IMG/VR virus record: IMGVR_UViG_2713896899_000007
Location: 7,041-71,040 of that record
Source of the DNA: a virus
Lineage: Duplodnaviria > Heunggongvirae > Uroviricota > Caudoviricetes
Reading direction: 5' to 3' (one strand)
Length of the DNA: 64,000 nucleotides
The notes beneath the pieces are model-generated. The model searched no databases. It saw only the letters and a program-made list of their open reading frames with translations, and was not told where the DNA came from. Position 1 is the stretch's first letter, and each line of letters starts with the position of its first letter. The position numbers were made by a program, and so were the translations under genes. Shown here in pieces: positions 2,060-57,987 of the stretch.

Positions 2060-2844
2060 GTCTCATCTCCCTTGAGCAAGTCTCTGTGACGCAAGTGATG
2101 CGTCGTATGTTTCTGATACATCCCGCCGTAATAAGCACGACAACTTAGGCGGTCGATCTGGTGATGAAGAATCATTCCATCGCCGATATAAACCGCGCAG
2201 TGGTCAGGCATTTTCCCGTATTGGATAAAGAAGATGTCCCCACGTTGAGGCTCTGTTCCGGGCGCAAGACGCACCAATCCCTCGTTACGGTAGTTCTGAT
2301 CGAGAATGTCGTTATCGCCGGTGTACCACGATGGAATATGCAGGTGTGCGTTCGGGTTTAGTTCGACGTTAAACTCACGCTTCAAATAGTCCCGACACAA
2401 CATCCAGCAATCGAATACGCCAAATACATACGGTCTGCCCAGGTATGGCATTTCGAAACCATCAGGTGTGATCACATTCATCTCGCTAAAATGGAAAGGG
2501 GCATCTCCCTCAACATTCTTGCGAATAGCCAGAATCATCCACGGAACTTCCGTCGCTTCGCAGCCTGCACGATCGGCATCAGATGCTTCTGCTGATTCAT
2601 CAGTATGTGAATGCCAGATTGCGATAACATCACCCGCATCCTCTGCCGCCATAATGTCGTCAACGTGCATTACAAAAGTGTTCTGCGGGTTCTCCGAAAC
2701 ATTCCGCGCTTCCATAAAGCGATATTTGTCGCCATTAGTTCTAACCAGAAAGCCACACGCTTCATTAGGGTAGCGATTTATGGCGCAGAGATAGATTTGC
2801 TGCATAACGTCAGAGCCAAGCTCAGGGATTGCTTTATTACCCAT
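2047..2844 (-). CDS. tail tip assembly protein, lambda K-like (MPN/JAB + NlpC/P60)
   Basis: Motifs NEACGF, HSHTDES and DCWMLCRDY...HCAVYIGDG align to my recollection of lambda K. ATG 2844 has a GGAG RBS. The ORF-track start at 2871 is a TTG. Confidence 0.8.
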   Translation of the reverse strand: MGNKAIPELGSDVMQQIYLCAINRYPNEACGFLVRTNGDKYRFMEARNVSENPQNTFVMHVDDIMAAEDAGDVIAIWHSHTDESAEASDADRAGCEATEVPWMILAIRKNVEGDAPFHFSEMNVITPDGFEMPYLGRPYVFGVFDCWMLCRDYLKREFNVELNPNAHLHIPSWYTGDNDILDQNYRNEGLVRLAPGTEPQRGDIFFIQYGKMPDHCAVYIGDGMILHHQIDRLSCRAYYGGMYQKHTTHHLRHRDLLKGDETCLS

Positions 2845-3535
2845 ACCGCGTAGCTCCAATAAATCCGCCAAAATGGATCACACCGTCGGCAAAATAATTC
2901 CGACGCGCATTACAGGCGTCATAACGTTTTGTGCAGTAATCCGCACCAGACATAGACGTCTGCTGGTTATTTTTGTCGAAATATGGACCGGTATAGCCGC
3001 ATTCTGGCCCTCGGTATTTCCACGGGCAGGTGTTTTTAATGATCTGACGATACGGCAGTTGCACCCCCATCAAATCGAACACACTGGACAATTCAAACTC
3101 GACAACCTGATGAGTTTCGAGAGTTTTCTGTTCGATAAACCACATTTCATCCGGGAAATGTTGGTTTGGATCTGCTGTTGGGTTGCCGTCTTTAAAATTA
3201 ACGGCATCGAGGAAGCGAGCCAGCGTCATCTTGCGAATAATGCGGCAGCCAACAAGATCGTCGTTTGCCTGAACTTCCGCAGAGACGGTTCCGGCAAAGT
3301 TCGACACCTGAATTTTTGGACGTGGCAACGTTCCCTGGCCAGTTTTGTCAAAGCCTGATGCTTTGATTGGCCACGGCTCGTATGTCACTCCTTGCCAGAC
3401 GACCGGTTGCATCAGTTCGTTTGTTCCGGCATGGAAGAATAGCTTCCCCCCTGAAGTTGTGTTCGACATATCCAGTACGAACAACTCAATGAGTGCAGAG
3501 GGAGATAAGCTCTGAATATCAGCTTTAATTCCCAT
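2837..3535 (-). CDS. minor tail protein, lambda L-like
   Basis: ARFLDAVNFKDGNPTADP and the Cys cluster (CPWKYRGPECGY...C..C) resemble lambda L. ATG 3535 has an AAGGA RBS. Confidence 0.85.
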   Translation of the reverse strand: MGIKADIQSLSPSALIELFVLDMSNTTSGGKLFFHAGTNELMQPVVWQGVTYEPWPIKASGFDKTGQGTLPRPKIQVSNFAGTVSAEVQANDDLVGCRIIRKMTLARFLDAVNFKDGNPTADPNQHFPDEMWFIEQKTLETHQVVEFELSSVFDLMGVQLPYRQIIKNTCPWKYRGPECGYTGPYFDKNNQQTSMSGADYCTKRYDACNARRNYFADGVIHFGGFIGATRYG

Positions 3536-18359: not shown

Positions 18360-18991
18360 TATTCGTCCTCCCCTTCACTTCCATCATCTGTCGCATCAAA
18401 TTCGCTTAGAGCTTCTTCTTCCAACGTCTCAAGCAATTCGTCATCGATGATTTCAGGCTCGTCGTCTTCCTGACGTAATTTCGCCACCTGGGAAGGCGTA
18501 AGCTCACCAAATACCAGGTTCGGAATTTCTTCCTCGTCATTTTCAGCATGATCCATGCCCAATGCTTTGGACGAAACTTCAAAGCATTTTGCAAGGGTAT
18601 TACTGGCTCTCTGTAAGCTCTTGAGAGAATCCTCAATCGCCCCTAAAGGCTTACCATCACGTTTGGCCGTAGTGACTTCGACCATCACCATCTGCCCCAA
18701 CGCATACGCCCAGCCGTCATAACGTGTACGACGTTCTTCTATCTTTTCCGCACGGGCTTTAGCGCGAAGCTCTGCGTCAGATTTAAGAGACTCACGAACC
18801 ATCTTCCCAACAGAGTCCGCGCCTTTCTCTAATCCTCGCTTTTTGAAATGTCTGGAGAGTGTTTCACGACGAATGCCGTACTCTTCCTCCAGCTTTGAGA
18901 GTGTATATTCGCCTGACGTCCATTTGGCTTCAGCTTCGGCCCACTCCGCTGGTGTCAGGCGAGTTTTTACCTCGTCTTTTTCGACCGTCAT
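18359..18991 (-). CDS. terminase small subunit (HTH, acidic tail)
   Basis: N-terminal HTH-like YTLSKLEEEYGIRRETLSRHFKKRG and an acidic C-terminus. Translationally coupled to TerL. Confidence 0.65.
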   Translation of the reverse strand: MTVEKDEVKTRLTPAEWAEAEAKWTSGEYTLSKLEEEYGIRRETLSRHFKKRGLEKGADSVGKMVRESLKSDAELRAKARAEKIEERRTRYDGWAYALGQMVMVEVTTAKRDGKPLGAIEDSLKSLQRASNTLAKCFEVSSKALGMDHAENDEEEIPNLVFGELTPSQVAKLRQEDDEPEIIDDELLETLEEEALSEFDATDDGSEGEDE

Positions 18992-19086
18992 AGATCCCTC
19001 TAAAACACACAGAGCGCGTCCATGCGCTCTAAAACAACTTGTTTACTGCGTATGCTAACCAACTTGTTTTCTGGGGTGTTTAATTA

Positions 19087-19185
19087 GGTCTGGGCATGTC
19101 TTACTAAGCCTGCTTCCGTATATATTTAATAAGTTACTTATTATTTATATATACGGAAGCAGGTCTTTAAATAAGCTCCCAGACC
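19087..19185. repeat. nested inverted repeat (17-bp perfect arms inside 8-bp outer arms)
   Basis: cctgcttccgtatatat (19109-19125) pairs with atatatacggaagcagg (19147-19163). Outer arms are ggtctggg (19088-19095) and cccagacc (19178-19185). A second copy lies at 50158-50210. Confidence 0.85.
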
Positions 19186-19187
19186 GA

Positions 19188-19454
19188 TTACATCACCAGT
19201 AACTTCGCTTTGGCTCGACCTAAAGTGGTTAACCCAAGAGTCCGGCGGTGATAGCGATTGTCACTGCGTTGGCGCGTATGCCCTTTCTCCACCAGCCCCT
19301 TTTTTATCAGAGCGCGAATTGAGAACTGAATACTTTGCTTGGTTGTCTTGTACGGCAAAACTTCAAGCAATTCGTCCAGATCAAGTAGATGACCTCGCTC
19401 ATAACCGAGATTGAGCGTTTTGATGATGTCCTTTTGTTTATCGGTTAACGTCAT
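19188..19454 (-). CDS. small winged-helix-like DNA-binding protein
   Basis: 88 aa. TTKQSIQFSIRALIKKGLVEK resembles an HTH-wing. Last gene of the ParB operon. Confidence 0.5.
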   Translation of the reverse strand: MTLTDKQKDIIKTLNLGYERGHLLDLDELLEVLPYKTTKQSIQFSIRALIKKGLVEKGHTRQRSDNRYHRRTLGLTTLGRAKAKLLVM

Positions 19455-19463
19455 GGCAAATCC

Positions 19464-20354
19464 TTATGCCGGTAAAGCAATTTCTAACGGTTTATCCAAA
19501 GGTTGTTTGTCGAATGCCAGCAGTGGCAGCGTGTCAGGCAGTCGACGACCAAAGTCAGGGTTTCGATACACACCATACAACGGAGACGTAAAGCTCAGGT
19601 TGTGAATGTCCTTGAGCAGCTTCACAATGCTGGCCTCGTCCACCAGACTGTCGGCAATGTCCTGAATCGTCGTGCCACGATTCCGCCCAGCTTTTGCCAG
19701 GGAACTGTTCTTGTGGTAGTCCGCCACCAGATCACGCAGTGCACGGCGACGACGAGACTCGCTCATTGCGAACAACTCTTTGACGATCGCCTCGTTATCA
19801 CCCGGGTCAGAACGGAAATGGCGCTGGAATACACGCAGTGCACTTTCATAGCTCTTCGGTCGCTCAGGGCGGATGAACTTAAACCCCGCTTTCATGGCGA
19901 AGGGATTGTATTTGCTCATCGAGGACTGGATCTCAATGATTGGCCGGTCATGCATCCTGCTAACCAGGTTAATCATTCGATAAGAGACGCCTACGCCACG
20001 ATACTGAGTATCCACAACTGAGCGACTGATCACCGCAAAGTTGTTATTCACGTACCGACCCCAGTACTGGTTAGCCACGGTGGTATTAGTGGTTGGTTTC
20101 AACTTAGGAAACATGCGGTGGCGAGGTGCCAACAGTAGTTTCGGGTAAGCCATAACCACGACGCCCACCAGACGGTCATCAAGTTCGCAGCGATAGTAAG
20201 TTGGCGCGAAAGGTTTGCCGTCTGTTTTGTAGTGAAGCGACTTAAGAGCGTGCCAGTCCTCTACAGTTCCCTTTGTAACAGTCATTCGCTCCAGAAAGTC
20301 CAGATGACGCGGAAACTCTTCAGGGCGGTAGCGTTTAATGATGATGTCCGTCAT
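19464..20354 (-). CDS. GNAT-like acetyltransferase-domain protein
   Basis: VVDTQYRGVGVSYRMI fits the GNAT Q/RxxGxG/A acetyl-CoA loop. 296 aa. ATGA-coupled to the upstream ATPase. Confidence 0.5.
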   Translation of the reverse strand: MTDIIIKRYRPEEFPRHLDFLERMTVTKGTVEDWHALKSLHYKTDGKPFAPTYYRCELDDRLVGVVVMAYPKLLLAPRHRMFPKLKPTTNTTVANQYWGRYVNNNFAVISRSVVDTQYRGVGVSYRMINLVSRMHDRPIIEIQSSMSKYNPFAMKAGFKFIRPERPKSYESALRVFQRHFRSDPGDNEAIVKELFAMSESRRRRALRDLVADYHKNSSLAKAGRNRGTTIQDIADSLVDEASIVKLLKDIHNLSFTSPLYGVYRNPDFGRRLPDTLPLLAFDKQPLDKPLEIALPA

Positions 20355-25565: not shown

Positions 25566-26165
25566 ATGAAAATGAAAATTTCGTTACTCCTTGCTTGTAT
25601 ATGCCTCCCGGCGTTTTCCGCCAACGCATTATCAGATTTCGTCTCTGACATGCAAAAAACGTACAGCATGTTTACCTCCGAAGACGTAGTAGAATACAAA
25701 TCACGAGGTCTGAATCAGCCAGTTTGGTTCAGATTCTCAGACAACGCAGAAGAAACAATACTTAATGGAGGAAAAGAAAGATTACGGTTGCAAATTAACG
25801 GGACCGCTGTACCAGAAAACGTTAATGTAAACTCTGACGAAGCCATGAAGCCATCTGGAATTGTTTTAGAAGTTCAAGACGGCACACTTTACTGTGATGA
25901 AATGGCTACAACAGGTTGCCAAGTAAACATTAGGGTTGGCAATGAAGAGCCTATCGTTACTTACGCCAAGGCTGAAGGGAATACAAGTGGAAAGGTATTG
26001 TTTATCGATGAAAATATCTCAAAACGTATCGTTCGTGACATACAGAAAACAGCTAACTCTAAATCCGTCGATAAAAAAATCTATGTTGAGGTTCCCTTCT
26101 TTGTCGTTGGTAACAAAGAATTTAAATTTGGGTTGCTGAAAACACCTCTAAGAGTATCAGAATGA
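25566..26165 (+). CDS. secreted/periplasmic hypothetical protein
   Basis: The N-terminus MKMKISLLLACICLPAFSANA looks like a Sec signal peptide. ATG 25566 is preferred over TTG 25551. Confidence 0.6.
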   Translation: MKMKISLLLACICLPAFSANALSDFVSDMQKTYSMFTSEDVVEYKSRGLNQPVWFRFSDNAEETILNGGKERLRLQINGTAVPENVNVNSDEAMKPSGIVLEVQDGTLYCDEMATTGCQVNIRVGNEEPIVTYAKAEGNTSGKVLFIDENISKRIVRDIQKTANSKSVDKKIYVEVPFFVVGNKEFKFGLLKTPLRVSE

Positions 26166-26686
26166 GAACATTGGACATCACCTACGGCATACCGGCTGAA
26201 GTCTGGCCGCGAGACTACGAACATGCTGAAAACATACTTATGTTCTGGCGGAAGAACAACATTCCTGTAAGAGTCACGCTTGAAGACGGTCAGGTGTTTT
26301 GCATGTACGTTCAGGGGACAATGCCTTCCCGCAATAAGCTAGATTTATGCCCGCTTCCATATGATAAAGAAAATCGTATAAGACTCCCACTTGAGCGCAT
26401 TAGCACAATTGAATCAGGTGTAATCGATGGCATTGCTCGCGAGTTCAAAGGTAGGCTAACAATACATCCAGACTATGTTGACAATCAGCCATCACGCCGT
26501 GACTTTTTTGCGATATGTCGCAAGGCTTATCAAAACGACCAATCTATAAGGGTCTACATGGCAGACGGTCGTGAAATTGAAGGGGTGTCAAGAGGCGTTG
26601 ATGCTTGCCAGGTCACTCTTAAGTTAGAAGACGGCAGAAAAATACTTGTTTTCTTCGATTGGGTTGAACGAATCCTTCCATTTTAA
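26162..26686 (+). CDS. hypothetical protein with two Sm/LSm-like repeats (pattern level only)
   Basis: ATGA overlap with the upstream gene. VRVTLEDGQVF..YVQG and IRVYMADGREIEGVSRGVDACQVTLKLEDGRKILVFFDWVERI fit the Sm-fold pattern V.V.L.dG..i.G...g.D...l.L. Confidence 0.5.
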   Translation: MRTLDITYGIPAEVWPRDYEHAENILMFWRKNNIPVRVTLEDGQVFCMYVQGTMPSRNKLDLCPLPYDKENRIRLPLERISTIESGVIDGIAREFKGRLTIHPDYVDNQPSRRDFFAICRKAYQNDQSIRVYMADGREIEGVSRGVDACQVTLKLEDGRKILVFFDWVERILPF

Positions 26687-26697
26687 ATCTATAAGGG

Positions 26698-26728
26698 TAA
26701 TAACCGGCTAAGCCCGGTTATTATTTTA
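26698..26728 (+). terminator. rho-independent terminator
   Basis: gtaataaccgg / ccggttattat stem followed by a T-run. Confidence 0.75.
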
Positions 26729-26878
26729 CATGCCATTCATTTAAAACTCTTTCAATGCCACTCTGTATAAATATATAAGGTTAAAGGCCCGAATTGATTA
26801 TTTATTTAGGGAACACCTTCGACGATCTCGCTTTTATTTCTAGGACTTTCACCCCTGCAAAAAATTTAAAAAAAACAC

Positions 26879-26906
26879 TTGCAATCTTTTTTCACGTATC
26901 GATAAT
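26879..26906 (+). promoter_or_regulatory. sigma70-type promoter (TTGCAA-16 nt-GATAAT)
   Basis: Read directly from the sequence. About 70 nt upstream of the 26982 start, in an AT-rich gap. Confidence 0.55.
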
Positions 26907-26981
26907 TGAACTCGTCGAAAGCGAGCTGGCTAACGACAGTAAAAAATAAATTCATTTTAATTTTTCGTAAGGATGTCCATC

Positions 26982-27632
26982 ATGGCTAACATTATCATTT
27001 CTAAAAAATCCATCATTGAAGCTGCTTCCATTGTATCCGATGAACTGCGCGAAAAAGCAGATCTGGCAACTCAAACATATAACGAACATTATAAAAATGG
27101 TACGCACACTAAAGCAGACAAAGCAAATATGCAAGCTGCGACCACTAAACTTGCTTACTTCATCAACAACGTCGTAAACGCAGTAGAAGACGAAAAATTA
27201 TGCTCTGTTTTCTACTATGCGATTAAAGCAAGCAAACAAGCGCCAGAAGTATTTTTCCGTGATGCTATGACTAATAGTTATTCACTGGAAAAACTGGTTT
27301 ATCTGGTTAAATCCATTAAAGCTGGTAAATGCGTTTATTCCGTCGCTGATATGTCAGGATCTCGTGTATTCGCTTTAATCGATATGATTAACGACGAGAT
27401 CGACACGTTCACCAATGGCGCTGTTTTCGATTTAATGAATGAAGCTAAAAAAGCGTGCGAAATTAAATTGGACGCTGGCTATACTCAAGCCAACCAGTTG
27501 ATCAATCTTTGCGAACGTCTCGGACTTGTTGAAAAAGTCAAAGGAGCTGGGAGCGCCAAAGCTGGTACGCAGCAATATCGCTTCATTAAAAATGATTTCT
27601 ACAATTATTTAGCTGATGCTTTTAAAGCGTAA
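26982..27632 (+). CDS. hypothetical protein (possible C-terminal winged helix)
   Basis: ATG 26982 lies 8 nt after AAGGA. 216 aa. YTQANQLINLCERLGLVEKVKG is HTH-like. Confidence 0.55.
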   Translation: MANIIISKKSIIEAASIVSDELREKADLATQTYNEHYKNGTHTKADKANMQAATTKLAYFINNVVNAVEDEKLCSVFYYAIKASKQAPEVFFRDAMTNSYSLEKLVYLVKSIKAGKCVYSVADMSGSRVFALIDMINDEIDTFTNGAVFDLMNEAKKACEIKLDAGYTQANQLINLCERLGLVEKVKGAGSAKAGTQQYRFIKNDFYNYLADAFKA

Positions 27633-27681
27633 TTAATGAAATCAAGCGCCCACTATGGGCGCTTTAAAGGAGCTTTCAAAA

Positions 27682-27885
27682 ATGGTCAGCTATGACAAGA
27701 TCCGCGCGGAATATCGCGCAAAGTATCGCGCTTATAAACTGGAATTAATCGACGATTTGATCGCGCAACGCGACCAATTAAATTTTACGTTTTCTGATTT
27801 GCTTAACAGTAAACGAGATTGTAAGCGTAAGCGTGAATATTTACGTTTAAGCGCATTAATCGGAAAACTTCAAAATTCTATTTAA
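27682..27885 (+). CDS. small basic coiled-coil hypothetical protein
   Basis: ATG 27682 follows an AAGGAG RBS. The track start at 27655 lies inside a hairpin. Confidence 0.45.
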   Translation: MVSYDKIRAEYRAKYRAYKLELIDDLIAQRDQLNFTFSDLLNSKRDCKRKREYLRLSALIGKLQNSI

Positions 27886-27905
27886 TTTTTTTAAGGAGCT
27901 TAATC

Positions 27906-28133
27906 ATGGTTATTTTCATCTCTGGCGTAAATATCAATAATCATACTCTTGTTTATGATATTGCTGGTTTAGCTGGATATGCTCTAAGTTCTGAAGTGGT
28001 TGATGAAACAACGTTTAAAATAAACATCAATGACGTAGAACATAGAGCGCGCGTAGGAATCAATGAAGCTGATGTTACTTTAATGCTTCAAGAATTTTTA
28101 AACGCTGGCTTTAATATTCACTTAGAAAAATAA
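27906..28133 (+). CDS. small hypothetical protein
   Basis: 75 aa, AAGGAG RBS, followed by a strong terminator. Confidence 0.5.
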   Translation: MVIFISGVNINNHTLVYDIAGLAGYALSSEVVDETTFKININDVEHRARVGINEADVTLMLQEFLNAGFNIHLEK

Positions 28134-28140
28134 AAACAAT

Positions 28141-28165
28141 AGCGCCCACTATGGGCGCTTTTTTC
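28141..28165 (+). terminator. rho-independent terminator (agcgcccactatgggcgct + T6)
   Basis: Perfect hairpin plus a T-run. The identical 21-mer also occurs at 27643-27663. Confidence 0.8.
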
Positions 28166-28625
28166 GTTTACAATACACCCACCATAACGCGCCAATAATG
28201 GCGCTTTTTTATTGTCTTTAACTCACTCCAACAACATAAAAATAAGCGCCAAAATAACGCCATAGACGCGCTTTTATATCCTTGTCAGTACATACCCATT
28301 ACTTAACACATTAACGCGCTTAAAATGCGTTATATTGCGCTATAACGTATGGCTAATCATTAATTTTTATTCTTGCTATGTGATCCGCGTTTAATTGTCG
28401 GCGCGGATCGGCATTTTGTTTTGTTCCGTATCCGCTCGCGTATTATGTGCGCGTGATTTTTCACATAATCACACCACTTAATCACGTATGTGATTATGCT
28501 ACGAAAGAAATCTGGATGTCTCAGGCGACGAAAGTCATCATAATTTTCCCCGCTCACCTGTCCGACAACCGCTGGTTGGATTCCACCAGCTTCCCGATGT
28601 TTTTTCTACATAAAGGCGAATGCAG

Positions 28626-28738
28626 CCGTTTCCCGAAAAAATCCTGGCCGTTTCCCGTCGGCTCATGAATGCGTTCCTTGCCGTTTCTGAAAATTTCCCT
28701 GCGGCAGCTGGTGGCTATAGAGAAAGGGCCGTTTCTGG
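28626..28738 (+). repeat. iteron cluster A (CCGTTTCCCGAAAA-type)
   Basis: Copies at 28626, 28648 (22 bp apart) and 28681. A further copy at 28729 lies inside a hairpin. Confidence 0.6.
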
Positions 28739-28750
28739 CCCTCTTCTCAG

Positions 28751-29233
28751 TTACACGCCATCAAGGATGTGGATGCGGTTGCTTGCGTATACATTCAGCA
28801 TAAAGTTAGCGCAAAACAGTTTCCATGTATCAACGCCAGCGGTATACGTAATGTTTTTGCATTTAATTGCATTGTTGGCGATCTGCGTAGCCAGTGATAT
28901 GGCTTCATGGTCAGTAAAGCCGTATGACGTTTGGGTCTTCATCCAGACAGAAATCTGCGTAGCGAACTCAATCAGCTTGGACTGGCAGAATCGCCCGGAG
29001 CGCACCGGAAAGACGAACGTTCCGAATCCAGAATTTACCACATACGCTTTCTCAAATACCCGAGAGTAACGACGATTGCCAATGATGTCGCGTGCAATAA
29101 TGCATTTTTCTTGTTCTGACAGTTCTACCGTCTCATTGTGACGCCAGGCACCAAGTACTCGTTTTTCAATGTCAGAGAACGTTACAGCGATATTGCCATG
29201 TGCGGGTGCGTTTACAGTAGCGATAAAATTCAT
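28751..29233 (-). CDS. hypothetical protein
   Basis: 160 aa. Has its own conserved promoter (29251-29287) and a hairpin terminator (28726-28743). Confidence 0.6.
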   Translation of the reverse strand: MNFIATVNAPAHGNIAVTFSDIEKRVLGAWRHNETVELSEQEKCIIARDIIGNRRYSRVFEKAYVVNSGFGTFVFPVRSGRFCQSKLIEFATQISVWMKTQTSYGFTDHEAISLATQIANNAIKCKNITYTAGVDTWKLFCANFMLNVYASNRIHILDGV

Positions 29234-29250
29234 GATTAATTCCTTATCGT

Positions 29251-29287
29251 AAATAACAAATTGTTTTCTTGTTGGCGTTAATTATCG
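29251..29287 (-). promoter_or_regulatory. conserved early promoter/leader element
   Basis: Minus strand reads CGATAATTAACGCCAACAAGAAAACAATTTGTTATTT, a member of the roughly 10-copy family. Confidence 0.55.
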
Positions 29288-29438: not shown

Positions 29439-30137
29439 TCATGCTGGAATCATATCTAATTGAAAAGATTCCATTATATATGTTGGTTCATCGATGTAGT
29501 CCTTCAGCCTATTGTCAAATGACTCAAGCGGATTGTATGGCGGATGATGCCGCTCCGAGTATTCATTTAAAAGATGCCCCATTATCAGTTCGATACCCAT
29601 CTCTACTCCTGAAACTCCGAACCATACATTGTGCGTTAGTTGCTGGGCGTCTGTATCCAGTACGCGAACGCCATCAACAAGATTTATTAGATTCCTGTGG
29701 TTTTCGTGTACTGTAACCTCTCCGCTGGTTAAGTCTATTTCAGCGAGAAAATATGGTCTTTTGCTTCCGTCGGACTTTTTGAAATGACCGTCATAAGCGA
29801 TAGCAAACCACGCTTTACTAAAGTCCTTGTTGGCGTAAGTGGTGCACATACAACTAGGATAATCATCAATGTTAAACCAATCAGGAAACGGATCATCTTT
29901 AGACGAGCCAGCAAAATCATCAGCTAGTTCGTAGCTAATGTCTGGGTTGTACTTGCTGACAAAATCATCTACATCCTCTACATCCTCAACACCTTTCCAA
30001 ACTTTACATCTCTCCGACCAAAAGAATCTCGCAATATCCGAAATGACTGGGAAACGTTTTTCAATTGAATTTATCAACTCTGCATGTTCTTTAAGAGATT
30101 TACGCTTGTTGATAAGCTTCTGAAGATGCGTACTCAT
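29439..30137 (-). CDS. hypothetical protein
   Basis: 232 aa ORF. GATAAT-type promoter at about 30165 with an upstream palindrome at 30188-30210. Confidence 0.6.
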   Translation of the reverse strand: MSTHLQKLINKRKSLKEHAELINSIEKRFPVISDIARFFWSERCKVWKGVEDVEDVDDFVSKYNPDISYELADDFAGSSKDDPFPDWFNIDDYPSCMCTTYANKDFSKAWFAIAYDGHFKKSDGSKRPYFLAEIDLTSGEVTVHENHRNLINLVDGVRVLDTDAQQLTHNVWFGVSGVEMGIELIMGHLLNEYSERHHPPYNPLESFDNRLKDYIDEPTYIMESFQLDMIPA

Positions 30138-30251
30138 TTTTAATTCCTCGTTTGTTTTTGATGTGATAATTATCGCAGTCAGATTAAGGCAGAAAACAAA
30201 TTGTTATCGGGCATAAGAAAATGGCGCGGTTTACGCGCCATTTAAAGAGGA

Positions 30252-31085: not shown

Positions 31086-31094
31086 CACAACTCC

Positions 31095-31131
31095 GTAAAC
31101 AACTTGTTTTCTCAATGGCGTAAATAATACC
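31095..31131 (-). promoter_or_regulatory. conserved early promoter/leader element
   Basis: Minus strand reads GGTATTATTTACGCCATTGAGAAAACAAGTTGTTTAC. Confidence 0.55.
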
Positions 31132-31578: not shown

Positions 31579-31614
31579 TTAAACAACATGTTTTCTTATT
31601 GGTGTTATTATCGC
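31579..31614 (-). promoter_or_regulatory. conserved early promoter/leader element
   Basis: Minus strand reads GCGATAATAACACCAATAAGAAAACATGTTGTTTAA. Confidence 0.55.
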
Positions 31615-32119: not shown

Positions 32120-32990
32120 GAAAAAGGAGGCGACACCCCTACTTCCCTCTCCACTTATACATACCAGGCTTCTTCGCTATACATGTTGTGTTTTCTTCGT
32201 GTTTTATCTGTCTCAACCTCTCTATAGGCGTTAATGCTCACTCCTACCAGAACGTTCTATACGGCGACTATTTCTGTTGGTGGATTAGGTGTGTTGTTTT
32301 CTCTGTCGGTGTATGTGGTTTCGTTCGTTTTGCGGTGGTTCTTCTATGGGGTGTTCTCGTCGTTTTGGTGATTGTTCTTCTCCGTATATGGAGTAATGGC
32401 AGGTGGGCGATTGCTTTCGTTATTGTGTTTGAGTTGTTTGTCTGGAGTGTGTGAAAGGCTTTTGTAGTTATTCGTGTATTGGGTAATGGCGTTTCCCGTG
32501 ATTGTTATGTTTCGTGTCTTTTGGGATTGAGAGAAACCTTGCGGTTACAGGCTTCGTTGGGGTTTCAGTGATTCTGGTGTTTCTTCGCTGTTTGGGGAAT
32601 GGCGTGTCGTGGGTATCGCGCGTGTGAATGTTTTCGGATTGCCTGTGAAAGTTAGGTTGGTTATCCGGTAGCCTGGGAAGAAGAGGTGGGTCTTTTCGGT
32701 AGCCTGCCATAAAGAGGTTGGTTGTTTTTGGGAATGGCATGTGTGTTATTTAGTTGTTTTGTTATGCCTGAAAATAAGTTGTTTATATGGTTGTGTAACG
32801 CAACGGGAGCGATTTTGAGCGTGTGTTTTTGTTGGTAGTGTGTTGAGTCGTCTGTGGTGAAAATTGGACGCTGTGGAGCTGTCTGCTGCGTAGGATTACG
32901 GGTATAAGAAGTGATGTGTGAAAACGTCAATTTTTTAGACCAAATCGGGAGAAAGCGTTGATGTTTCGTTGATCTGTTATTTAGTTGTTT
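32120..32990 (-). ncRNA. candidate long C+A-rich untranslated transcript (hypothetical)
   Basis: A family promoter at 32974-33006 points into a stretch with no credible ORF. The plus strand is 72-85% G+T in the three 60-nt lines I counted. The ends are not defined. Confidence 0.25.
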
Positions 32991-33436: not shown

Positions 33437-33447
33437 TTCAACCACTC

Positions 33448-33517
33448 CAAAACAAGTTGTTTTCTTATGTGGCTTATTATCTCTAACAACAAAAGGCAGA
33501 AAACAAATTGTTTTAGG
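33448..33517 (-). promoter_or_regulatory. early promoter with two AAAACAAnTTGTTTT palindromes flanking GATAAT
   Basis: Minus strand reads CCTAAAACAATTTGTTTTCTGCC...GAGATAATAAGCCACATAAGAAAACAACTTGTTTTGG. Confidence 0.6.
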
Positions 33518-34363: not shown

Positions 34364-34504
34364 ACGCAGAAAACAAATTGTTTTAGGGGCTGAGTAAATC
34401 AGAAGGGATTGCGTCTATATGAAAATGCCCAGCAATACGCTGGGCATTGTGAAGAATGGTTGTTTAGTTACTTAACTTGGTGGCCTGGTTTAGCACCAGC
34501 ATCC
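34364..34504 (-). repeat. phage palindrome + metG terminator + metG 3' end (partner of 33496-33636)
   Basis: See the alignment for the partner repeat. The terminator stem is aatgcccagc/gctgggcatt (34422-34446). Confidence 0.9.
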
Positions 34505-36501
34505 GGGCTTAACAGGAAGATATCTTTCCCGCCGGGGCCAGCAGCCATCACCATGCCTTCGGAGATACCGAAGCGCATTTTACGCGGAGCCAGGTTAGCC
34601 ACCATAATTGTGTGACGACCAATCAGTGCCTGTGGGTCTGGATAAGCAGAACGGATGCCTGAGAAGACATTACGCTTTTCACCACCGAGATCCAGTGTCA
34701 GGCGCAACAGTTTGTCAGAACCTTCAACAAACTCCGCGTTTTCAATCAGCGCCACACGCAGGTCAACTTTGGCGAAGTCGTCAAAGGTGATGGTTTCCTG
34801 AATCGGGTCGTCAGCCAGTGGGCCAGTAACTGGCGCGGCAGTAGCTTTCACTTCTTCTTTGGATGCTTCCACCAGTGCTTCCACCTGTTTCATATCGATA
34901 CGGTTATACAGTGCCTTGAACGGATTCACTTTATGGCCCAGCAGCGGTTGCTGGATACCATCCCAGGTCAGTTCTGTATTCAGGAATGCTTCTGCACGTT
35001 CAGTCAGTTTCGGCAGTACCGGTTTCAGATACGTCATCAGCACGCGGAACAGGTTAATGCCCATAGAGCAAATCGCCTGCAGATCTGCATCGCGACCTTC
35101 CTGCTTCGCCACCACCCACGGAGCCTGTTCATCGACATAGCGGTTAGCCAGGTCAGCCAATGCCATGATTTCACGGATAGCTTTACCAAATTCGCGGCTT
35201 TCCCATGCTTCGCCAATCACTTCAGCGGCATCAGTAAAGGTTTTGTACAGTTGCGGGTCAGCCAGTTCGCTTGCCAGCACGCCGTCAAAACGCTTGTTGA
35301 TAAAGCCTGCATTACGGGAGGCCAGGTTAACCACTTTGTTAACAATATCGGCATTCACTCGCTGAACGAAATCCTCCAGGTTGAGATCGATATCATCAAT
35401 GCGCGAAGAGAGTTTCGCAGTGTAGTAGTAACGCAGGCTGTCAGCGTCAAAATGATTCAGCCAGGTGCTGGCTTTAATAAAGGTGCCGCGAGACTTGGAC
35501 ATCTTCGCACCGTTCACCGTCACATAGCCATGAACAAACAGGTTGGTCGGCTTGCGGAAGTTGCTGCCTTCCAGCATGGCAGGCCAGAACAGACTGTGGA
35601 AGTAAACGATATCTTTACCGATGAAGTGGTACAGCTCGGCGGTGGAGTCTTTCTTCCAGTATTCATCGAAGCTGGTGGTATCGCCGCGCTTGTCGCACAG
35701 ATTCTTGAAGGAACCCATGTAGCCAATCGGTGCGTCCAGCCAGACGTAGAAATATTTACCCGGCGCGTTCGGAATTTCAAAACCGAAGTAAGGTGCGTCG
35801 CGGGAGATATCCCACTGTTGCAGACCAGATTCAAACCACTCCTGCATTTTGTTTGCCACCTGCTCCTGCAACGCACCGCTGCGGGTCCATGCCTGCAACA
35901 TTTCGCTGAAAGAGGGCAGATCAAAGAAGAAGTGTTCAGAATCACGCATTACCGGGGTAGCACCAGAAACCACCGATTTCGGCTCGATCAGTTCAGTCGG
36001 GCTGTAGGTCGCGCCACAAACTTCACAGTTATCGCCGTATTGATCTGGCGCTTTACATTTCGGGCAGGTGCCTTTCACAAAACGATCCGGCAGGAACATG
36101 CCTTTTTCCGGGTCGTACAACTGAGAGATAGTGCGGTTTTTAATAAAACCGTTCTCTTTCAGGCGAGTATAAATAAGCTCAGACAGCTGGCGGTTCTCTT
36201 CGCTGTGCGTCGAGTGATAGTTGTCATAGCTGATGTTAAAGCCTGCGAAATCAGTCTGGTGTTCCTGACTCATTTCGCCAATCATCTGCTCCGGTGTGAT
36301 ACCAAGTTGCTGTGCTTTCAGCATGATCGGCGTACCGTGGGCATCGTCGGCACAGATGAAATTAACCTCGTGGCCGCGCATTCGCTGGTAACGAACCCAG
36401 ACATCAGCCTGGATGTGCTCCAGCATATGGCCGAGGTGGATTGAGCCGTTAGCGTACGGCAGCGCGCACGTCACCAGAATTTTCTTCGCGACTTGGGTCA
36501 T
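34468..36501 (-). CDS. metG: methionine--tRNA ligase
   Basis: 677 codons from ATG 36501 ([25 protein letters not shown]...KMSKS...). Near-identical to E. coli MetG as I recall it. The 43-codon upstream extension in the track is spurious. Confidence 0.97.
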
Positions 36502-36658
36502 AGTAGGCATTACTTCTTTGTAGTGAAAAGGGGCTTGATAGTAACAAAATGGCCTTATGTCTGCCATGTGATAACAGCATTTCTCATAAATGATTAAATG
36601 TCGTAGCTGGAGTACACTACAAGGCGACAATTGCGCAAATTAAAATAAAGGAGACGGG

Positions 36659-37759
36659 ATGAGCGAGTCCAAATCGCCGGATGCCCTGAGAGCAATGGTA
36701 GCCGGTACGCTGGCTAATTTTCAGCACCCAACCCTGAAACACAACCTGACTACGCTTAAAGCGTTACACCATGTTGCGTTGATGGATGACACACTGCATG
36801 TCGAACTAATCATGCCTTTCGTGTGGAATAAGCCTTTTGAAGACCTGAAAGAGCAATGTAGTGGTGATCTGCTCCGTATCACTGGCGCAAAGGCTATTGA
36901 CTGGAAGCTGTCGTACAACATTGCCACGCTTAAGCGCGTCAAAAACCAACCAGGCATTAATGGTGTTAAGAATATTATCGCCGTAAGCTCAGGCAAGGGC
37001 GGTGTAGGCAAATCGTCCACAGCAGTAAACTTGGCACTGGCGTTGGCTGCTGAAGGTGCGAAAGTTGGTATTTTGGATGCCGATATCTACGGGCCATCAA
37101 TACCAACCATGCTGGGCGCGGAAAACCAACGTCCAACCTCACCGGACGGTACTCACATGGCACCTATCATGTCTCATGGCCTGGCAACCAATTCAATTGG
37201 CTATCTGGTCACCGACGACAATGCAATGGTGTGGCGTGGACCGATGGCCAGCAAGGCGCTGATGCAGATGTTGCAGGAAACACTGTGGCCTGATCTGGAC
37301 TATCTCGTTCTCGATATGCCGCCGGGCACTGGTGATATTCAGTTGACGCTGGCGCAGAACATTCCTGTAACTGGTGCGGTTGTGGTAACTACGCCGCAAG
37401 ACATCGCGCTGATCGATGCGAAGAAAGGCATTGTGATGTTCGAAAAAGTCGAAGTGCCAGTACTGGGTATCGTTGAAAACATGAGTGTGCATATTTGCAG
37501 TAACTGCGGTCATCACGAGCCAATTTTTGGCACCGGTGGCGCACAGAAACTGGCCGAGAAATACAACACGCAGTTGTTAGGCCAAATGCCACTTCATATC
37601 TCTCTTCGTGAAGATCTGGATAACGGAACACCAACCGTTATTAGTCGTCCAGATAGTGAATTTACGGCTATTTATCGTGACCTCGCAGATCGCGTTGCTG
37701 CCCAAATGTATTGGCAAGGTGAAGTAATACCTGGCGAAATCGCATTCCGCGCAGTGTGA
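36659..37759 (+). CDS. apbC: Fe-S cluster carrier ATPase Mrp/ApbC
   Basis: AVSSGKGGVGKSS P-loop and a CSNCGHH motif. Divergent from metG as in the E. coli chromosome. Confidence 0.95.
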   Translation: MSESKSPDALRAMVAGTLANFQHPTLKHNLTTLKALHHVALMDDTLHVELIMPFVWNKPFEDLKEQCSGDLLRITGAKAIDWKLSYNIATLKRVKNQPGINGVKNIIAVSSGKGGVGKSSTAVNLALALAAEGAKVGILDADIYGPSIPTMLGAENQRPTSPDGTHMAPIMSHGLATNSIGYLVTDDNAMVWRGPMASKALMQMLQETLWPDLDYLVLDMPPGTGDIQLTLAQNIPVTGAVVVTTPQDIALIDAKKGIVMFEKVEVPVLGIVENMSVHICSNCGHHEPIFGTGGAQKLAEKYNTQLLGQMPLHISLREDLDNGTPTVISRPDSEFTAIYRDLADRVAAQMYWQGEVIPGEIAFRAV

Positions 37760-37762
37760 TAA

Positions 37763-37787
37763 AAAGGTGGTGCATTGCACCACCTAA
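37763..37787. terminator. bidirectional hairpin between mrp and humD-like gene
   Basis: aggtggtgca t tgcaccacct. Confidence 0.6.
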
Positions 37788-38222: not shown

Positions 38223-38358
38223 TACATGAAAGAAGCTCACTCAGTGCAACTGATCGGTACATAGCACCAGACAAAGGAACATTATTTTCTCGAACAAGAA
38301 AAGGTAGAAAACAAATTGTTTAAGGCCACAGCTAGTGGCCTTAATGGAGAAGGGATGC

Positions 38359-43328: not shown

Positions 43329-43447
43329 TCTTAACTCCGTTGTTTTCTAGTTGTGGTTATTTTCACAAATAAGAAAAGGTAGAAAACAATTTATTTAAGG
43401 CCACAACTTATGGCCTTTATTTATTCATGCAGAAGAATTTGTAGCGT

Positions 43448-46289: not shown

Positions 46290-46325
46290 TTAAATAATTT
46301 GTTTTCTTATTGGTGTAATTATCGC
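46290..46325 (-). promoter_or_regulatory. conserved early promoter/leader element
   Basis: Minus strand reads GCGATAATTACACCAATAAGAAAACAAATTATTTAA. Confidence 0.55.
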
Positions 46326-46987: not shown

Positions 46988-47126
46988 GTGTTTTCCTTAA
47001 TGCTTAAACAAGTTGTTTTCTTATTGGCTTTATTGTGATGTGGCATATAAGGGGAGCAAGCTAAACGTAAAGGTGCAAACTCTCTATTTTGGTCAACGAA
47101 ACACAAGGGCCATTTGGCCCTTGTCA

Positions 47127-47710: not shown

Positions 47711-47803
47711 GTGTTTTCCTTTTGTTATTTGTCAAAACAAGTTGTTTTCTAGTTAAATAAATTGCTTACGCAAAGACGGTCAATGCATATGCACTAACAA
47801 CCG

Positions 47804-53672: not shown

Positions 53673-54148
53673 TACGACCTTCTGTATACGATCTGCGAAA
53701 AGCCAGGCTCTTCCTCGCTGGCTCGTTGGGTATAAGCTGTTTCAACAGGCACAAAGCCTAAGTTACGCATCATGCTTGCCGGGAAGAATGCATCGGCGTT
53801 TGGTACATCAACGCCGATGTGGGAGAGCCAAATCTCTTCAACATGCGGCATGAATAGCGAGTAAATTTGTTCCCCGCCAATCACCCACACAGGCTCTGGT
53901 AATCGCAACACATCATCCACACCAGCAGGGTAGAATCCATTTGGTACAAAGCCATGAGAGCGCGTCAAAACGAGGTTATGACGCTCTGGAAGAGGGCGTT
54001 TGAGACTTTCCATCGTTTTACGCCCCATAACGACAGTGGCGTTTTTGGTGAGTCTCTTAAATAGCTTCAGATCGGTAGAACAACGCCAGGGCAGTTCGTT
54101 CGCTATGCCGATCTCATAGTTACGGCCAACAGCAGCTATCATCTTCAT
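53672..54148 (-). CDS. folA: dihydrofolate reductase
   Basis: MIAAV...LPW...VVMGRKT...VIGGEQIY pattern. 158 aa. Confidence 0.9.
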   Translation of the reverse strand: MKMIAAVGRNYEIGIANELPWRCSTDLKLFKRLTKNATVVMGRKTMESLKRPLPERHNLVLTRSHGFVPNGFYPAGVDDVLRLPEPVWVIGGEQIYSLFMPHVEEIWLSHIGVDVPNADAFFPASMMRNLGFVPVETAYTQRASEEEPGFSQIVYRRS

Positions 54149-57950: not shown

Positions 57951-57987
57951 GTTTAAACAAGTTGTTATCTTATTTGTTTAAACAAGG
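57951..57987 (-). promoter_or_regulatory. conserved early promoter/leader element
   Basis: Minus strand reads CCTTGTTTAAACAAATAAGATAACAACTTGTTTAAAC. Confidence 0.5.

What the first reader, a model, noticed from the sequence alone, without database searches (positions are those of the whole stretch)
26879..28165. Second AT-rich cassette with its own strong promoter; its two small genes are bracketed by an identical 21-nt hairpin
The promoter TTGCAA-16-GATAAT (26879-26906) drives 26982..27632 (HTH-like C-terminus), 27682..27885 and 27906..28133.

The hairpin agcgcccactatgggcgcttt occurs identically at 27643-27663 and 28141-28161. It flanks the two small genes as a 498-bp direct repeat unit. This suggests cassette duplication or insertion, or attenuation between the first gene and the other two.

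The iteron/IR zone follows directly. A small Rep-like DNA binder plus a cis site is one possible reading.
Basis: partly seen in the sequence, partly recalled or inferred. Interest (0 to 1): 0.5.

Follow-up and report, generated by a model that had tools for sequence, protein, structure and literature searches.

The report
Terminator hairpin bounds swappable gene slot
In an SSU5-like phage-plasmid of E. coli, one exactly conserved 19-base terminator hairpin is repeated on both sides of two small genes, and relatives show these genes being lost, gained or swapped precisely at the hairpin; this is a neat but not unprecedented way for phage genomes to shuffle accessory genes.

Summary
AGCGCCCACTATGGGCGCTTT occurs exactly twice, at 27645-27665 and 28141-28161. 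The first coordinate given was off by 2, and the spacing is 496 bp, not 498.

The window is plasmid p009_B of E. coli strain 9, an SSU5/pHCM2/pMT1/Cyrano-type phage-plasmid.

In 72 distinct related loci, a hairpin copy with at most 3 mismatches (mostly exact) follows the conserved 216-aa gene in all but one. The segment behind it is polymorphic:
- empty, with one hairpin: 9 loci
- a 67-aa gene: 23
- a 75/76-aa gene: 14
- both genes: 16
- two 75/76-aa paralogues, each followed by its own hairpin: 2
- tandem hairpins 44-48 nt apart: 4

Breakpoints fall exactly at the hairpin base or at a repeated ribosome-binding site. One relative lacks precisely 27645-28140. The last copy always keeps 4-6 T. 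Internal copies have 0-3 T and run into an RBS.

Best reading: an intrinsic terminator that also serves as the crossover point of a promoterless accessory-gene slot. It works like the PeSL cassettes of T4-type phages but is not a member of that family.

Interest is moderate to low.

The parts
26879..26906 (+). Sigma-70-type promoter candidate TTGCAA-16-GATAAT of the unit, preceded by an A/T-rich tract
   Evidence: 9 of 12 consensus positions; both hexamers are about 90-100% conserved in 72 relatives. The homologous unit is silent in the Cyrano lysogen, so the promoter is probably repressed or weak in the plasmid state.
26982..27632 (+). Conserved anchor gene: 216-aa protein (phrog_1513) with N-terminal long helices and a C-terminal winged helix-turn-helix
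27645..27665 (+). Hairpin copy 1 (internal): AGCGCCCA-CTA-TGGGCGCT plus TT, 12 nt after the stop codon; its T-run is truncated and it runs straight into the RBS of gene A
   Evidence: In 72 relatives, internal copies have 0-3 leading T in 64 of 68 cases. It is the left breakpoint of the 496-bp absence in L003.
27667..27672 (+). RBS AAGGAG of gene A; part of the repeated AAGGAGCTT motif that also serves as a breakpoint
   Evidence: Read from the sequence. The L004 deletion of gene A spans 27677-27902, between the two RBS copies.
27682..27885 (+). Cassette gene A: 67-aa helical protein (phrog_6145; the 'MIT/CorA transporter' label is an inherited misannotation), promoterless
   Evidence: Present or absent independently of B in relatives. 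No informative family or PDB match.
27893..27898 (+). RBS AAGGAG of gene B, preceded by a T7 run that looks like the remnant of a terminator tail without its hairpin
   Evidence: Read from the sequence. The same T-run plus RBS follows a hairpin copy directly in L007, L031 and L067.
27906..28133 (+). Cassette gene B1: 75-aa protein (phrog_1585) with a ferredoxin/ACT-like fold; this is the rarer allele, and most E. coli relatives carry the 45%-identical B2
28141..28169 (+). Hairpin copy 2 (terminal) with a full T-run (TTTTTCGTTT): an intrinsic terminator, probably bidirectional because the upstream A-rich tract gives a U-run on the minus strand
   Evidence: (listed on both strands). The last copy has 4-6 leading T in 72 of 72 relatives. 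Identity to relatives resumes exactly at 28141.
28189..28210 (+). Second terminator-like hairpin GCGCCAATAATGGCGC plus T6, 46-48 nt after copy 2; a diverged sister of the main hairpin, equivalent to the identical tandem copies 44-48 nt apart in other lineages
   Evidence: (D3, 84% identical in register at 46-nt spacing); stems conserved and loop variable; tandem identical copies in L027, L057, L032 and L098.

Best explanation
The 19-nt perfect hairpin plus T-run is the Rho-independent terminator of a conserved transcription unit (promoter, 75-nt leader, 216-aa winged-helix protein) that is silent in the lysogen of a close relative. The same element marks the boundary and crossover point of a small accessory-gene slot. 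Promoterless modules of the form [RBS - small ORF - hairpin] sit behind the anchor gene. The families seen are A (67 aa), B1/B2 (75/76 aa) and, rarely, C (215 aa). Every hairpin copy that precedes a module has lost most of its T-run. It can therefore act only as a leaky terminator or a 3'-end stabiliser, letting the anchor promoter drive the modules. The last copy keeps the full T-run and ends the unit; it probably also blocks convergent transcription. Modules are gained, lost, duplicated and exchanged between phage-plasmid lineages by recombination or replication slippage across the identical 19-21-nt hairpin, and across the repeated AAGGAGCTT ribosome-binding site. Shown here: the repeat, the polymorphism, the exact breakpoints, the T-run asymmetry, and the silence in a lysogen of a relative. 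Inferred: termination and read-through, and the recombination mechanism (short-homology recombination, possibly helped by the element's own UvsX/RecA-, UvsY-, gp32- and UvsW-like genes, or slipped-strand events at the palindrome).
For: The repeat is exact and unique in the window. It has terminator geometry and folds at about -14 kcal/mol. In 72 distinct protein-anchored loci, a hairpin copy with at most 3 mismatches (mostly exact) follows the 216-aa gene in all but one. The architectures are A 23, A+B 16, B 14, empty 9, A+tandem 4, B+72 nt 3 and B-hairpin-B 2. The last copy has 4-6 T in 72 of 72 loci; internal copies have 0-3 T in 64 of 68. Empty sites occur in at least five lineages with 48-99% protein identity. 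Pairwise profiles give exact breakpoints. L003 lacks 27645-28140. L004 lacks 27677-27902, between the RBS copies. Against L006, identity is about 98%, falls to about 55% over gene B, and returns to about 97% at base 28141. The hairpin is specific to this element type: only 10 stretches in 596 Gb of genomes, of which 6 are SSU5-like and 4 are unrelated singletons, against about 4 expected by chance. Loop flips (CTA to TAG) occur in 19 of 72 arrays across several lineages, which shows that the palindrome itself is recombinationally active. The unit is at background in the Cyrano lysogen. Cyrano's annotation lists UvsW, UvsY, a gp32-like SSB and RecA.
Against: There is no experimental 3'-end or read-through data for this locus; the only RNA-seq is near the noise floor. 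The A-B junction in the window has no hairpin, and some breakpoints lie at the RBS, so the hairpin is not the only crossover site. Nineteen to 21 nt is below the usual minimum for RecA-dependent recombination in E. coli. The polarity of events (insertion or deletion) was not reconstructed on a tree. The stem core is invariant without compensatory change, which a pure terminator does not require; but the neighbouring FljA-gene terminator and the second hairpin are equally conserved, so this argues only weakly for an extra function.
Confidence: 0.68

Rival explanations
1. A dedicated, site-specific cassette system. The hairpin is recognised, perhaps as folded single-stranded DNA, by a recombinase that excises and inserts [ORF-hairpin] units downstream of a common promoter, as integron attC sites are by IntI.
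For: Promoterless ORFs lie behind one promoter. In L078 and L031 a hairpin follows each cassette. Junctions sit exactly at the hairpin base. The hairpin sequence is identical across lineages whose anchor protein is only 48-62% identical. Loops flip.
Against: No recombinase gene lies next to the locus; the element's tyrosine recombinase is about 50 kb away. The 19-nt perfect palindrome lacks attC features such as a 57-141-nt length, imperfect arms and extrahelical bases (from established knowledge of attC). There are only two copies in 64 kb, at one locus, and only three or four cassette families. Some breakpoints are at the RBS, and the A-B junction has no hairpin. All cassettes share one orientation.
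Confidence: 0.07
2. The hairpin is primarily a double-stranded palindromic binding site (operator, roadblock or centromere-like repeat) for a dimeric DNA-binding protein, possibly the adjacent 216-aa winged-helix protein. Copy number would then matter for binding, and the terminator-like look would be secondary.
For: It is a perfect 8-3-8 palindrome whose GCGCCCA/TGGGCGC core is 99% conserved without compensatory change. It always lies 6-12 nt behind a wHTH gene. Tandem copies occur with a 44-48-nt period in some lineages, which recalls the 43-bp repeats of F sopC (recalled from memory, not tested).
Against: The last copy always carries a T-run and follows a stop codon, the signature of a terminator. 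Loop flips and copy numbers of one to three are tolerated. An ordinary neighbouring terminator is just as conserved. The protein is not made in the lysogen of Cyrano, so it cannot serve plasmid maintenance there.
Confidence: 0.1
3. One reading: the 216-aa protein is a small Rep-like initiator that acts on the repeat zone at 28.4-28.75 kb. A revised version would make it a lytic-phase origin-binding or early regulatory protein acting on the four GCCGTTTC repeats.
For: It has a winged-helix DNA-binding domain. Four direct repeats GCCGTTTC(C/T) at 28625-28737 lie in a strongly conserved non-coding block about 1 kb downstream. Silence in the lysogen fits a lytic-phase function.
Confidence: 0.1
4. 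A trivial tandem duplication or an assembly artefact with no biological consequence.
For: Direct repeats flanking a segment can arise from a single duplication event.
Against: The two flanked genes are unrelated to each other and to the anchor gene. The same architecture and its variants occur in hundreds of independent assemblies from six or more genera.
Confidence: 0.02

Closest known systems
PeSL (promoter-early stem-loop) regulatory cassettes of T4-type phages (Arbiol et al. 2010, PMC2839356; Comeau et al. 2014, PMC4122927)
   Same: A short, conserved regulatory stem-loop (terminator) is repeated on both sides of small non-essential ORFs of unknown function. Insertions, deletions and replacements between close relatives have their breakpoints in the repeats. 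The host genome encodes T4-like recombination functions (UvsW, UvsY, gp32-like and RecA/UvsX-like in Cyrano's annotation).
   Different: PeSLs are composite (a strong sigma-70 early promoter plus a stem-loop) and occur many times across several hyperplastic regions. Here the repeat is the terminator hairpin alone, the cassettes have no promoter, and the repeat is confined to one slot with one to three copies. Mini-circles were not tested. The host is a siphovirus-type phage-plasmid, not a T4-like myovirus.
Intrinsic (Rho-independent) terminators, including tandem and bidirectional terminators
   Same: A G+C-rich 8-bp stem, a short loop, a T-run and a position a few bases after a stop codon; the terminal copy meets all the sequence criteria on both strands.
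   Different: The internal copy lacks most of the T-run. The primary sequence is conserved far beyond what pairing alone would need. The element also serves as a recombination breakpoint.
Phage morons (Juhala/Hendrix concept: an extra gene with its own promoter and terminator, expressed from the prophage)
   Same: Small accessory genes of unknown function, with deviant (A+T-rich) composition, inserted between conserved genes and followed by a terminator.
   Different: Genes A and B have no promoter of their own. The unit is not expressed in the Cyrano lysogen and is absent from that paper's moron list (PMC9928086, Table 1).
Integron gene cassettes (ORF plus attC downstream of Pc)
   Same: Promoterless ORFs, each followed by a palindromic element, arrayed behind one promoter, with variable content between relatives.
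   Different: No adjacent integrase, no attI, and a 19-nt perfect hairpin instead of a 57-141-nt imperfect attC. The cassette repertoire is tiny and sits at a single locus.
Intercistronic REP/stem-loop mRNA stabilisers (for example in malE-malF)
   Same: A stable hairpin between cistrons without an efficient T-run could protect the upstream message and set the ratio of upstream to downstream gene products.
   Different: It is not a genome-wide repeat family, and there are no data on mRNA decay here.

Membership tests
Intrinsic terminator | G+C-rich stem-loop of adequate stability just downstream of a stop codon | tested here: met
   An 8-bp stem with 6 G-C pairs and a 3-nt loop, about -14 kcal/mol, z about -3 against shuffles; it lies 12 nt after the 216-aa stop and 7 nt after the gene B stop.
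Intrinsic terminator | Run of T (U) immediately after the stem | tested here: met
   Terminal copy: TTTTTCGTTT; 4-6 T in 72 of 72 relatives. The internal copy does not meet this: TT then AAAGGAG, and 0-3 T in 64 of 68 relatives.
Intrinsic terminator | Transcripts end there in vivo | not testable with these tools
   Only gene-level RNA-seq near the noise floor is available for Cyrano.
PeSL cassette | Composite motif: a strong sigma-70 early promoter joined to the stem-loop | tested here: not met
   No promoter-like hexamer pair adjoins either hairpin copy. What follows an internal copy is an RBS.
PeSL cassette | Many copies spread over hyperplastic regions of the genome | tested here: not met
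   Two copies in 64 kb, both at this locus; one to three copies at the same locus in relatives.
PeSL cassette | Indels and replacements between close relatives are bounded by the repeats | tested here: met
   Exact breakpoints at the hairpin in L003, L006, L078 and SSU5.
PeSL cassette | Circular excision products | not testable with these tools
   Needs inverse PCR or long-read data from phage or plasmid DNA.
Integron / attC cassette array | Integron integrase and attI adjacent to the array | tested here: not met
   The neighbours are a FljA-like gene and hypothetical genes. The only tyrosine recombinase is at record 18627-19730, about 50 kb away.
Integron / attC cassette array | attC architecture (imperfect palindrome of 57-141 nt with extrahelical bases) | tested here: not met
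   A 19-nt perfect palindrome. The attC criteria are from established knowledge; no attC model was run.
Integron / attC cassette array | Promoterless ORFs expressed from a common upstream promoter | tested here: inconclusive
   No promoter precedes A or B, and each has its own RBS. Co-transcription was not shown.
Moron | Own promoter and terminator; expressed from the repressed prophage | tested here: not met
   No promoter of their own. CYRAN_112 and CYRAN_113 are at floor level in the lysogen.
Iteron-type plasmid Rep (WH1-WH2 initiators) | Sequence or fold membership: two winged-helix domains, Rep_3/RepA-type profile | tested here: not met
Iteron-type plasmid Rep (WH1-WH2 initiators) | It is the replicon's initiator, expressed in the plasmid state, with iterons adjacent | tested here: not met
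   The RepB-family initiator is at 110063..1095. The Cyrano homologue is silent while RepA is expressed. Direct repeats exist about 1 kb downstream, but nothing links them to this protein.
Winged helix-turn-helix DNA-binding proteins (ArsR/SmtB/MarR-like fold) | H-b-H-H-b-wing-b topology with significant structural similarity | tested here: met

The most novel reading that the evidence does not exclude
The hairpin is the recognition site of a dedicated cassette-exchange mechanism in SSU5-like phage-plasmids. In this reading it would be a minimal, integrase-distant analogue of an integron: [RBS-ORF-hairpin] units are excised and inserted at the folded hairpin during replication, and loop flipping is a by-product of the reaction. 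A milder version is that the 216-aa winged-helix protein binds the palindrome and/or the downstream GCCGTTTC repeats as part of a lytic-phase control or origin module.
Probability: 0.08. Interest if true: 0.75.

Novelty: new variant of a known kind. Interest (0 to 1): 0.36.

Why it matters
SSU5-like phage-plasmids (pHCM2 of S. Typhi, pMT1 of Y. pestis, pLF82/Cyrano, and many Klebsiella and E. coli plasmids) are common in clinical Enterobacterales and are known to pick up accessory and resistance genes. This locus shows at base-pair resolution how one of their variable slots is built. A conserved terminator hairpin is reused as the seam along which promoterless small genes are added, removed, duplicated and swapped between lineages. 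That extends the PeSL-type 'regulatory repeat as recombination seam' idea from T4-like lytic phages to a temperate phage-plasmid. It does so in a simpler, terminator-only form, and it offers a compact natural system (a 496-bp deletion, loop flips) for measuring short-homology or palindrome-driven rearrangement. It also corrects two annotations: the 67-aa protein is not a CorA/MIT transporter, and the 216-aa 'hypothetical' is a winged-helix protein private to this element type. It does not reveal a new kind of machinery.

Tried and rejected
- Rfam scan of 26600-28800 at E up to 1: only sub-threshold chance hits (STnc350 at 24 bits against a gathering score of 60; Phe_leader; bxd_5), so no known RNA family.
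- Pfam, NCBIfam, PADLOC and PDB sequence searches of the three proteins: nothing significant. The PHROG label 'MIT family metal ion transporter' for the 67-aa protein is implausible for a soluble helical peptide and traces to the SSU5 annotation.
- The afdb50 fold library was unavailable.
- BFVD fold search of the 216-aa model: no full-length match.
- Exhaustive profile search for remote relatives of the 216-aa protein: only about 6 full-length clusters, all of the same family.
- The idea that the invariance of the hairpin stem proves a special sequence-specific function was weakened by a control: the FljA-gene terminator, the promoter hexamers and the second hairpin are equally conserved.
- Concerted evolution of the copies: rejected, because rare stem variants are not shared between copies of one genome.
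- Mobility of the cassette to other contexts: the one chromosomal B homologue lies in the same SSU5-like locus. The exact hairpin in an unrelated phage (L010/L096) and in four unrelated MAG contigs is at the level expected by chance.
- The integron/attC paper that mentions SSU5 says nothing about this locus. No paper describing the slot was found.
Full report
**Identity of the window.** Bases 26700-28800 are 100% identical to plasmid p009_B of E. coli strain 9 (NZ_CP048306.1, 110,182 bp). Window position 1 corresponds to record position 43985. The record carries tail, capsid, terminase, DnaE, DnaB-like, RecA, nrdAB and thyX genes together with a RepB-family initiator. Its relatives are Salmonella phage SSU5, Escherichia phages Cyrano (pLF82), PhiR41_1 and CMS-2020a, and Klebsiella phage-plasmids. 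It is therefore an SSU5-like phage-plasmid. The locus occurs in 240 of 5,426 complete E. coli genomes, always on plasmids. It also occurs in 768 PLSDB plasmids from Klebsiella, Escherichia, Enterobacter, Yersinia, Salmonella, Citrobacter and Cronobacter.

**The observation.**
- The 21-mer AGCGCCCACTATGGGCGCTTT occurs exactly at 27645-27665 and 28141-28161. There is nothing else within three mismatches in the window, and none of 100 shuffles gave a match.
- The element is an 8-bp perfect stem (AGCGCCCA/TGGGCGCT) with a 3-nt loop, folding at about -14 kcal/mol.
- The three genes have the coordinates given and match the PGAP annotation.
- The promoter-like site TTGCAA-16-GATAAT is present at 26879-26906. 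It matches only 9 of 12 consensus positions, in a region where such matches are no more frequent than in shuffles.
- The segment is moderately A+T-rich, at 34-41% GC against 43-50% in the flanks.

I fetched annotated relatives. I also collected 93 IMG/VR stretches holding the exact 19-mer and 80 loci found through the 216-aa protein, independently of the hairpin. Among the 72 distinct protein-anchored loci:
- In all but one, a hairpin copy with at most 3 mismatches (mostly exact) lies 6-12 nt after the stop codon of the 216-aa gene. In the exception, L150, the first hairpin has a 4-nt loop.
- What follows the hairpin is polymorphic:
  - nothing, with a single hairpin: 9 loci
  - gene A (67 aa) and a second hairpin, spacing 247: 23
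  - gene B (75/76 aa), spacing 271-274: 14; with an extra 72 nt, spacing 307: 3
  - A plus B, spacing 493-499: 16
  - two B paralogues, each followed by its own hairpin: 2
  - A followed by two hairpins 44-48 nt apart: 4
- In more distant relatives, where the anchor protein is 48% identical, two or three identical hairpins stand in tandem at 44-nt spacing with no gene between them (L027, L057).
- One E. albertii plasmid (L005) has a 215-aa gene in the slot. It is a distant paralogue (26% identity, E = 3e-13) of the window's own gene at 29439-30137 on the minus strand.

**Breakpoints are exact.**
- Against pAVS0747-B (L003), the window has an extra 27645-28140.
- Against L004, gene A is missing between 27677 and 27902, that is, between the two copies of the ribosome-binding motif AAGGAGCTT.
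- Against L006, identity is about 98% up to the start codon of gene B, about 55% across B (allele B1 against B2), and about 97% again from base 28141, the first base of the hairpin.
- Against SSU5, gene B is missing from just after the gene A stop to just before the hairpin.

**Asymmetry of the copies.**
- The last hairpin of every array is followed by 4-6 T (72 of 72 loci).
- Hairpins that precede a gene are followed by 0-3 T and then an RBS (64 of 68). The four exceptions are the gene-less tandem copies.
- In the window, copy 1 reads hairpin-TTAAAGGAGC and copy 2 reads hairpin-TTTTTCGTTT.
- Copy 2 is scored as a terminator on both strands, because an A-rich tract precedes it.
- A diverged sister hairpin, GCGCCAATAATGGCGC plus T6, follows 46-48 nt later at 28189-28210. 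It corresponds to the identical tandem copies of other lineages.

**Conservation.**
- In 58 distinct contexts the stem is 99% conserved and the loop 80%. The last 60 nt of the anchor gene are 78% conserved, and the 25 nt after the hairpin 58%.
- Stem variants are rare and mostly affect the outermost A-T pair. One is compensated to G-C. They are not shared between copies of one genome.
- This is not unique to the hairpin. The terminator of the upstream FljA-like gene (26693-26728), the promoter hexamers, several blocks at 26769-26925 and the second hairpin are just as invariant. I therefore do not read the invariance as proof of an extra sequence-specific function.
- The loop occurs in both orientations (CTA or TAG, all three bases changed). 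This affects the first or the second copy in 19 of 72 arrays, across lineages with 62%, 85-87% and 99% anchor identity. These are small inversions of the loop, the expected product of template switching or cruciform processing in a perfect palindrome.
- The exact 19-mer is nearly private to this element type. In 596 Gb of bacterial genomes it occurs in 10 stretches. Six are SSU5-like (Kluyvera, Y. pestis pMT1, Buttiauxella and a misbinned contig). Four are unrelated singletons, close to the roughly 4 expected by chance.

**The proteins.**
- The 216-aa protein (phrog_1513) has no Pfam, NCBIfam, PADLOC or PDB sequence match.
- An exhaustive profile search of 1.84 billion representatives finds only about six full-length clusters.
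- Its AlphaFold model (pLDDT 84.6) has long N-terminal helices (residues 8-114) and a C-terminal winged helix (124-215).
- The plasmid's initiator is a RepB-family protein at 110063..1095, about 38 kb away.
- So 'HTH-like' is right and 'Rep-like' is not supported.
- Gene A encodes a helical 67-aa peptide whose 'CorA/MIT transporter' label is an inherited misannotation.
- Gene B folds confidently (pLDDT 87.8) into a generic ferredoxin/ACT-like beta-alpha-beta-beta-alpha-beta unit with no diagnostic neighbour.
- The functions of A and B remain unknown.

**Expression.** In phage Cyrano, the 216-aa gene is CYRAN_113 and its single cassette gene B2 is CYRAN_112. Published RNA-seq of the LF82 lysogen puts both at the floor value in LB. 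They rise only slightly after 6 h in macrophages, together with lytic genes. RepA, the toxin-antitoxin genes and the putative repressor are clearly expressed (PMC9928086, Table 1 and S1 Table). The unit is therefore not a lysogenic-conversion moron. Its promoter is repressed or weak in the plasmid state, and it most likely belongs to the lytic programme.

**Interpretation.**
- The most economical reading is that the hairpin is the intrinsic terminator of the anchor gene, and that its identical copies, together with the repeated RBS, are the seams along which promoterless modules are exchanged.
- Unequal crossing-over or slippage between copies gives deletion (the empty site), duplication (B-hairpin-B, tandem hairpins) and allele replacement (B1 against B2).
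- Insertion in front of the T-run turns the upstream copy into a hairpin without an efficient U-tract. That lets the anchor promoter read into the modules.
- This is how the PeSL cassettes of T4-type phages work (PMC2839356, PMC4122927). Like those phages, this element encodes UvsW-, UvsY-, gp32- and RecA/UvsX-like functions.
- It fails the defining PeSL features of a joined promoter and genome-wide multiplicity, so I class it as working like a PeSL without being one.
- Integron-like, operator/centromere-like and Rep/origin readings are not excluded, but each lacks its defining features (see the membership table).

**The downstream zone.**
It is real and conserved, especially the four direct repeats GCCGTTTC(C/T) at 28625, 28647, 28680 and 28728, and the flanking inverted repeat CCACCAGCTTCC/GGCAGCTGGTGG.
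- It is separated from the cassette by two terminators, and nothing ties it to the 216-aa protein. It deserves its own analysis.

**Verdict.**
- The cassette interpretation is supported and sharpened.
- The Rep interpretation is not supported.
- This is a new, simpler variant of a known kind of phage genome plasticity. It is moderately interesting as a clean natural example in a clinically widespread phage-plasmid family, but not surprising to a specialist.

Noticed in passing
window, about 17 sites: 19029-19072, 29251-29269, 30191-30209, 31094-31112, 31581-31596, 32769-32784, 33447-33516, 34368-34386, 38306-38321, 43381-43396, 46292-46307, 47006-47021, 47732-47750, 57955-57970: The palindromic motif AGAAAACAAnTTGTTT gives 27 matches at up to 2 mismatches against 0.5 expected. 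Nearly all are in intergenic regions ahead of minus-strand gene blocks. Some lie within 40-70-nt repeats that also hold a terminator hairpin (AAGGCCAC..GTGGCCTT at about 38325-38345 and 43400-43420, families D5 and D6). It looks like the operator of a global regulator and/or PeSL-like composite regulatory cassettes for the variable minus-strand genes. None lies in the 26.7-28.75 kb unit.
   Followed up: partly
window 28560-28750: A strongly conserved non-coding block with four direct repeats GCCGTTTC(C/T) (28625, 28647, 28680, 28728), bracketed by the 12-nt inverted repeat CCACCAGCTTCC/GGCAGCTGGTGG (28583/28703). The repeats persist, with varying number and spacing, in relatives down to 62% anchor-protein identity. 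They are candidate protein-binding iterons (lytic origin or regulatory array); function unknown.
   Followed up: partly
window 28381-28498: Further conserved structures in the same non-coding zone: a hairpin TGATCCGCG..CGCGGATC with a T-rich tail (28381-28410), and a perfect 10-nt inverted repeat CATAATCACA/TGTGATTATG (28464-28498).
   Followed up: no
window 26769-26925: The 295-bp region between the FljA-like gene and the 216-aa gene holds several blocks that are about 90-100% conserved in 72 relatives: AAATATATAAGGT; two similar elements ATTTATTTAGGGAAC and TTTATTTCTAGGAC 32 nt apart, upstream of the -35; and a small hairpin CTCG-TCGAAAG-CGAG right after the -10. These are probably operator or activator sites that keep the promoter off in the lysogen.
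   Followed up: no
L001, L015, L020, L047, L060, L065 (first copy); L012, L017, L024, L033, L061, L083, L087, L093, L095, L099 (second copy): The 3-nt loop of the hairpin is inverted (CTA to TAG) in one copy of the array in many independent lineages, but never in both copies of a two-copy array in this sample. A flipped copy shortens the direct repeat to 8 nt, which might stabilise the cassette against deletion; that is speculation.
   Followed up: partly
L027, L057 (tandem 44-nt units); L032, L068, L077, L098 (hairpin-A-hairpin-hairpin): In distant SSU5-like lineages the unit 'hairpin + TTTTTGTTTCC..CCACC' (44-48 nt) is repeated head to tail two or three times with no gene between the copies. 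This shows that the terminator unit itself duplicates.
   Followed up: partly
L005 (CP043247.1) 2539-3186; window 29439-30137 (minus strand): A 215-aa gene occupying the slot in one E. albertii plasmid is a distant paralogue (26% identity, E = 3e-13) of the 232-aa gene in the window's neighbouring minus-strand variable block. Genes therefore move between adjacent variable slots.
   Followed up: partly
window 26162-26686: The gene just upstream is a full-length homologue of FljA, the repressor of phase-1 flagellin (PF03614, E = 5e-81). It is conserved in all SSU5-like relatives and is expressed above the level of CYRAN_113/112 in Cyrano (CYRAN_114). This suggests a possible effect of the phage-plasmid on host flagellin expression.
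   Followed up: no
L010 12915-12933 and L096 1472-1490 (IMG/VR contigs unrelated to SSU5): The exact 19-nt hairpin also ends a small gene next to a tail or baseplate-like gene in an unrelated phage type. Given the size of the collection, this is compatible with chance or convergence.
   Followed up: partly
window 34474-37765 and 53688-54164 (record 78458-81749 and 97672-98148): The element carries host-like metG and apbC genes and the trimethoprim-resistance gene dfrA51 next to thyX and nrdAB. The record also has four tRNA genes outside the window. dfrA51 in phage-plasmids is already published (PMC12217456, listed).
   Followed up: no
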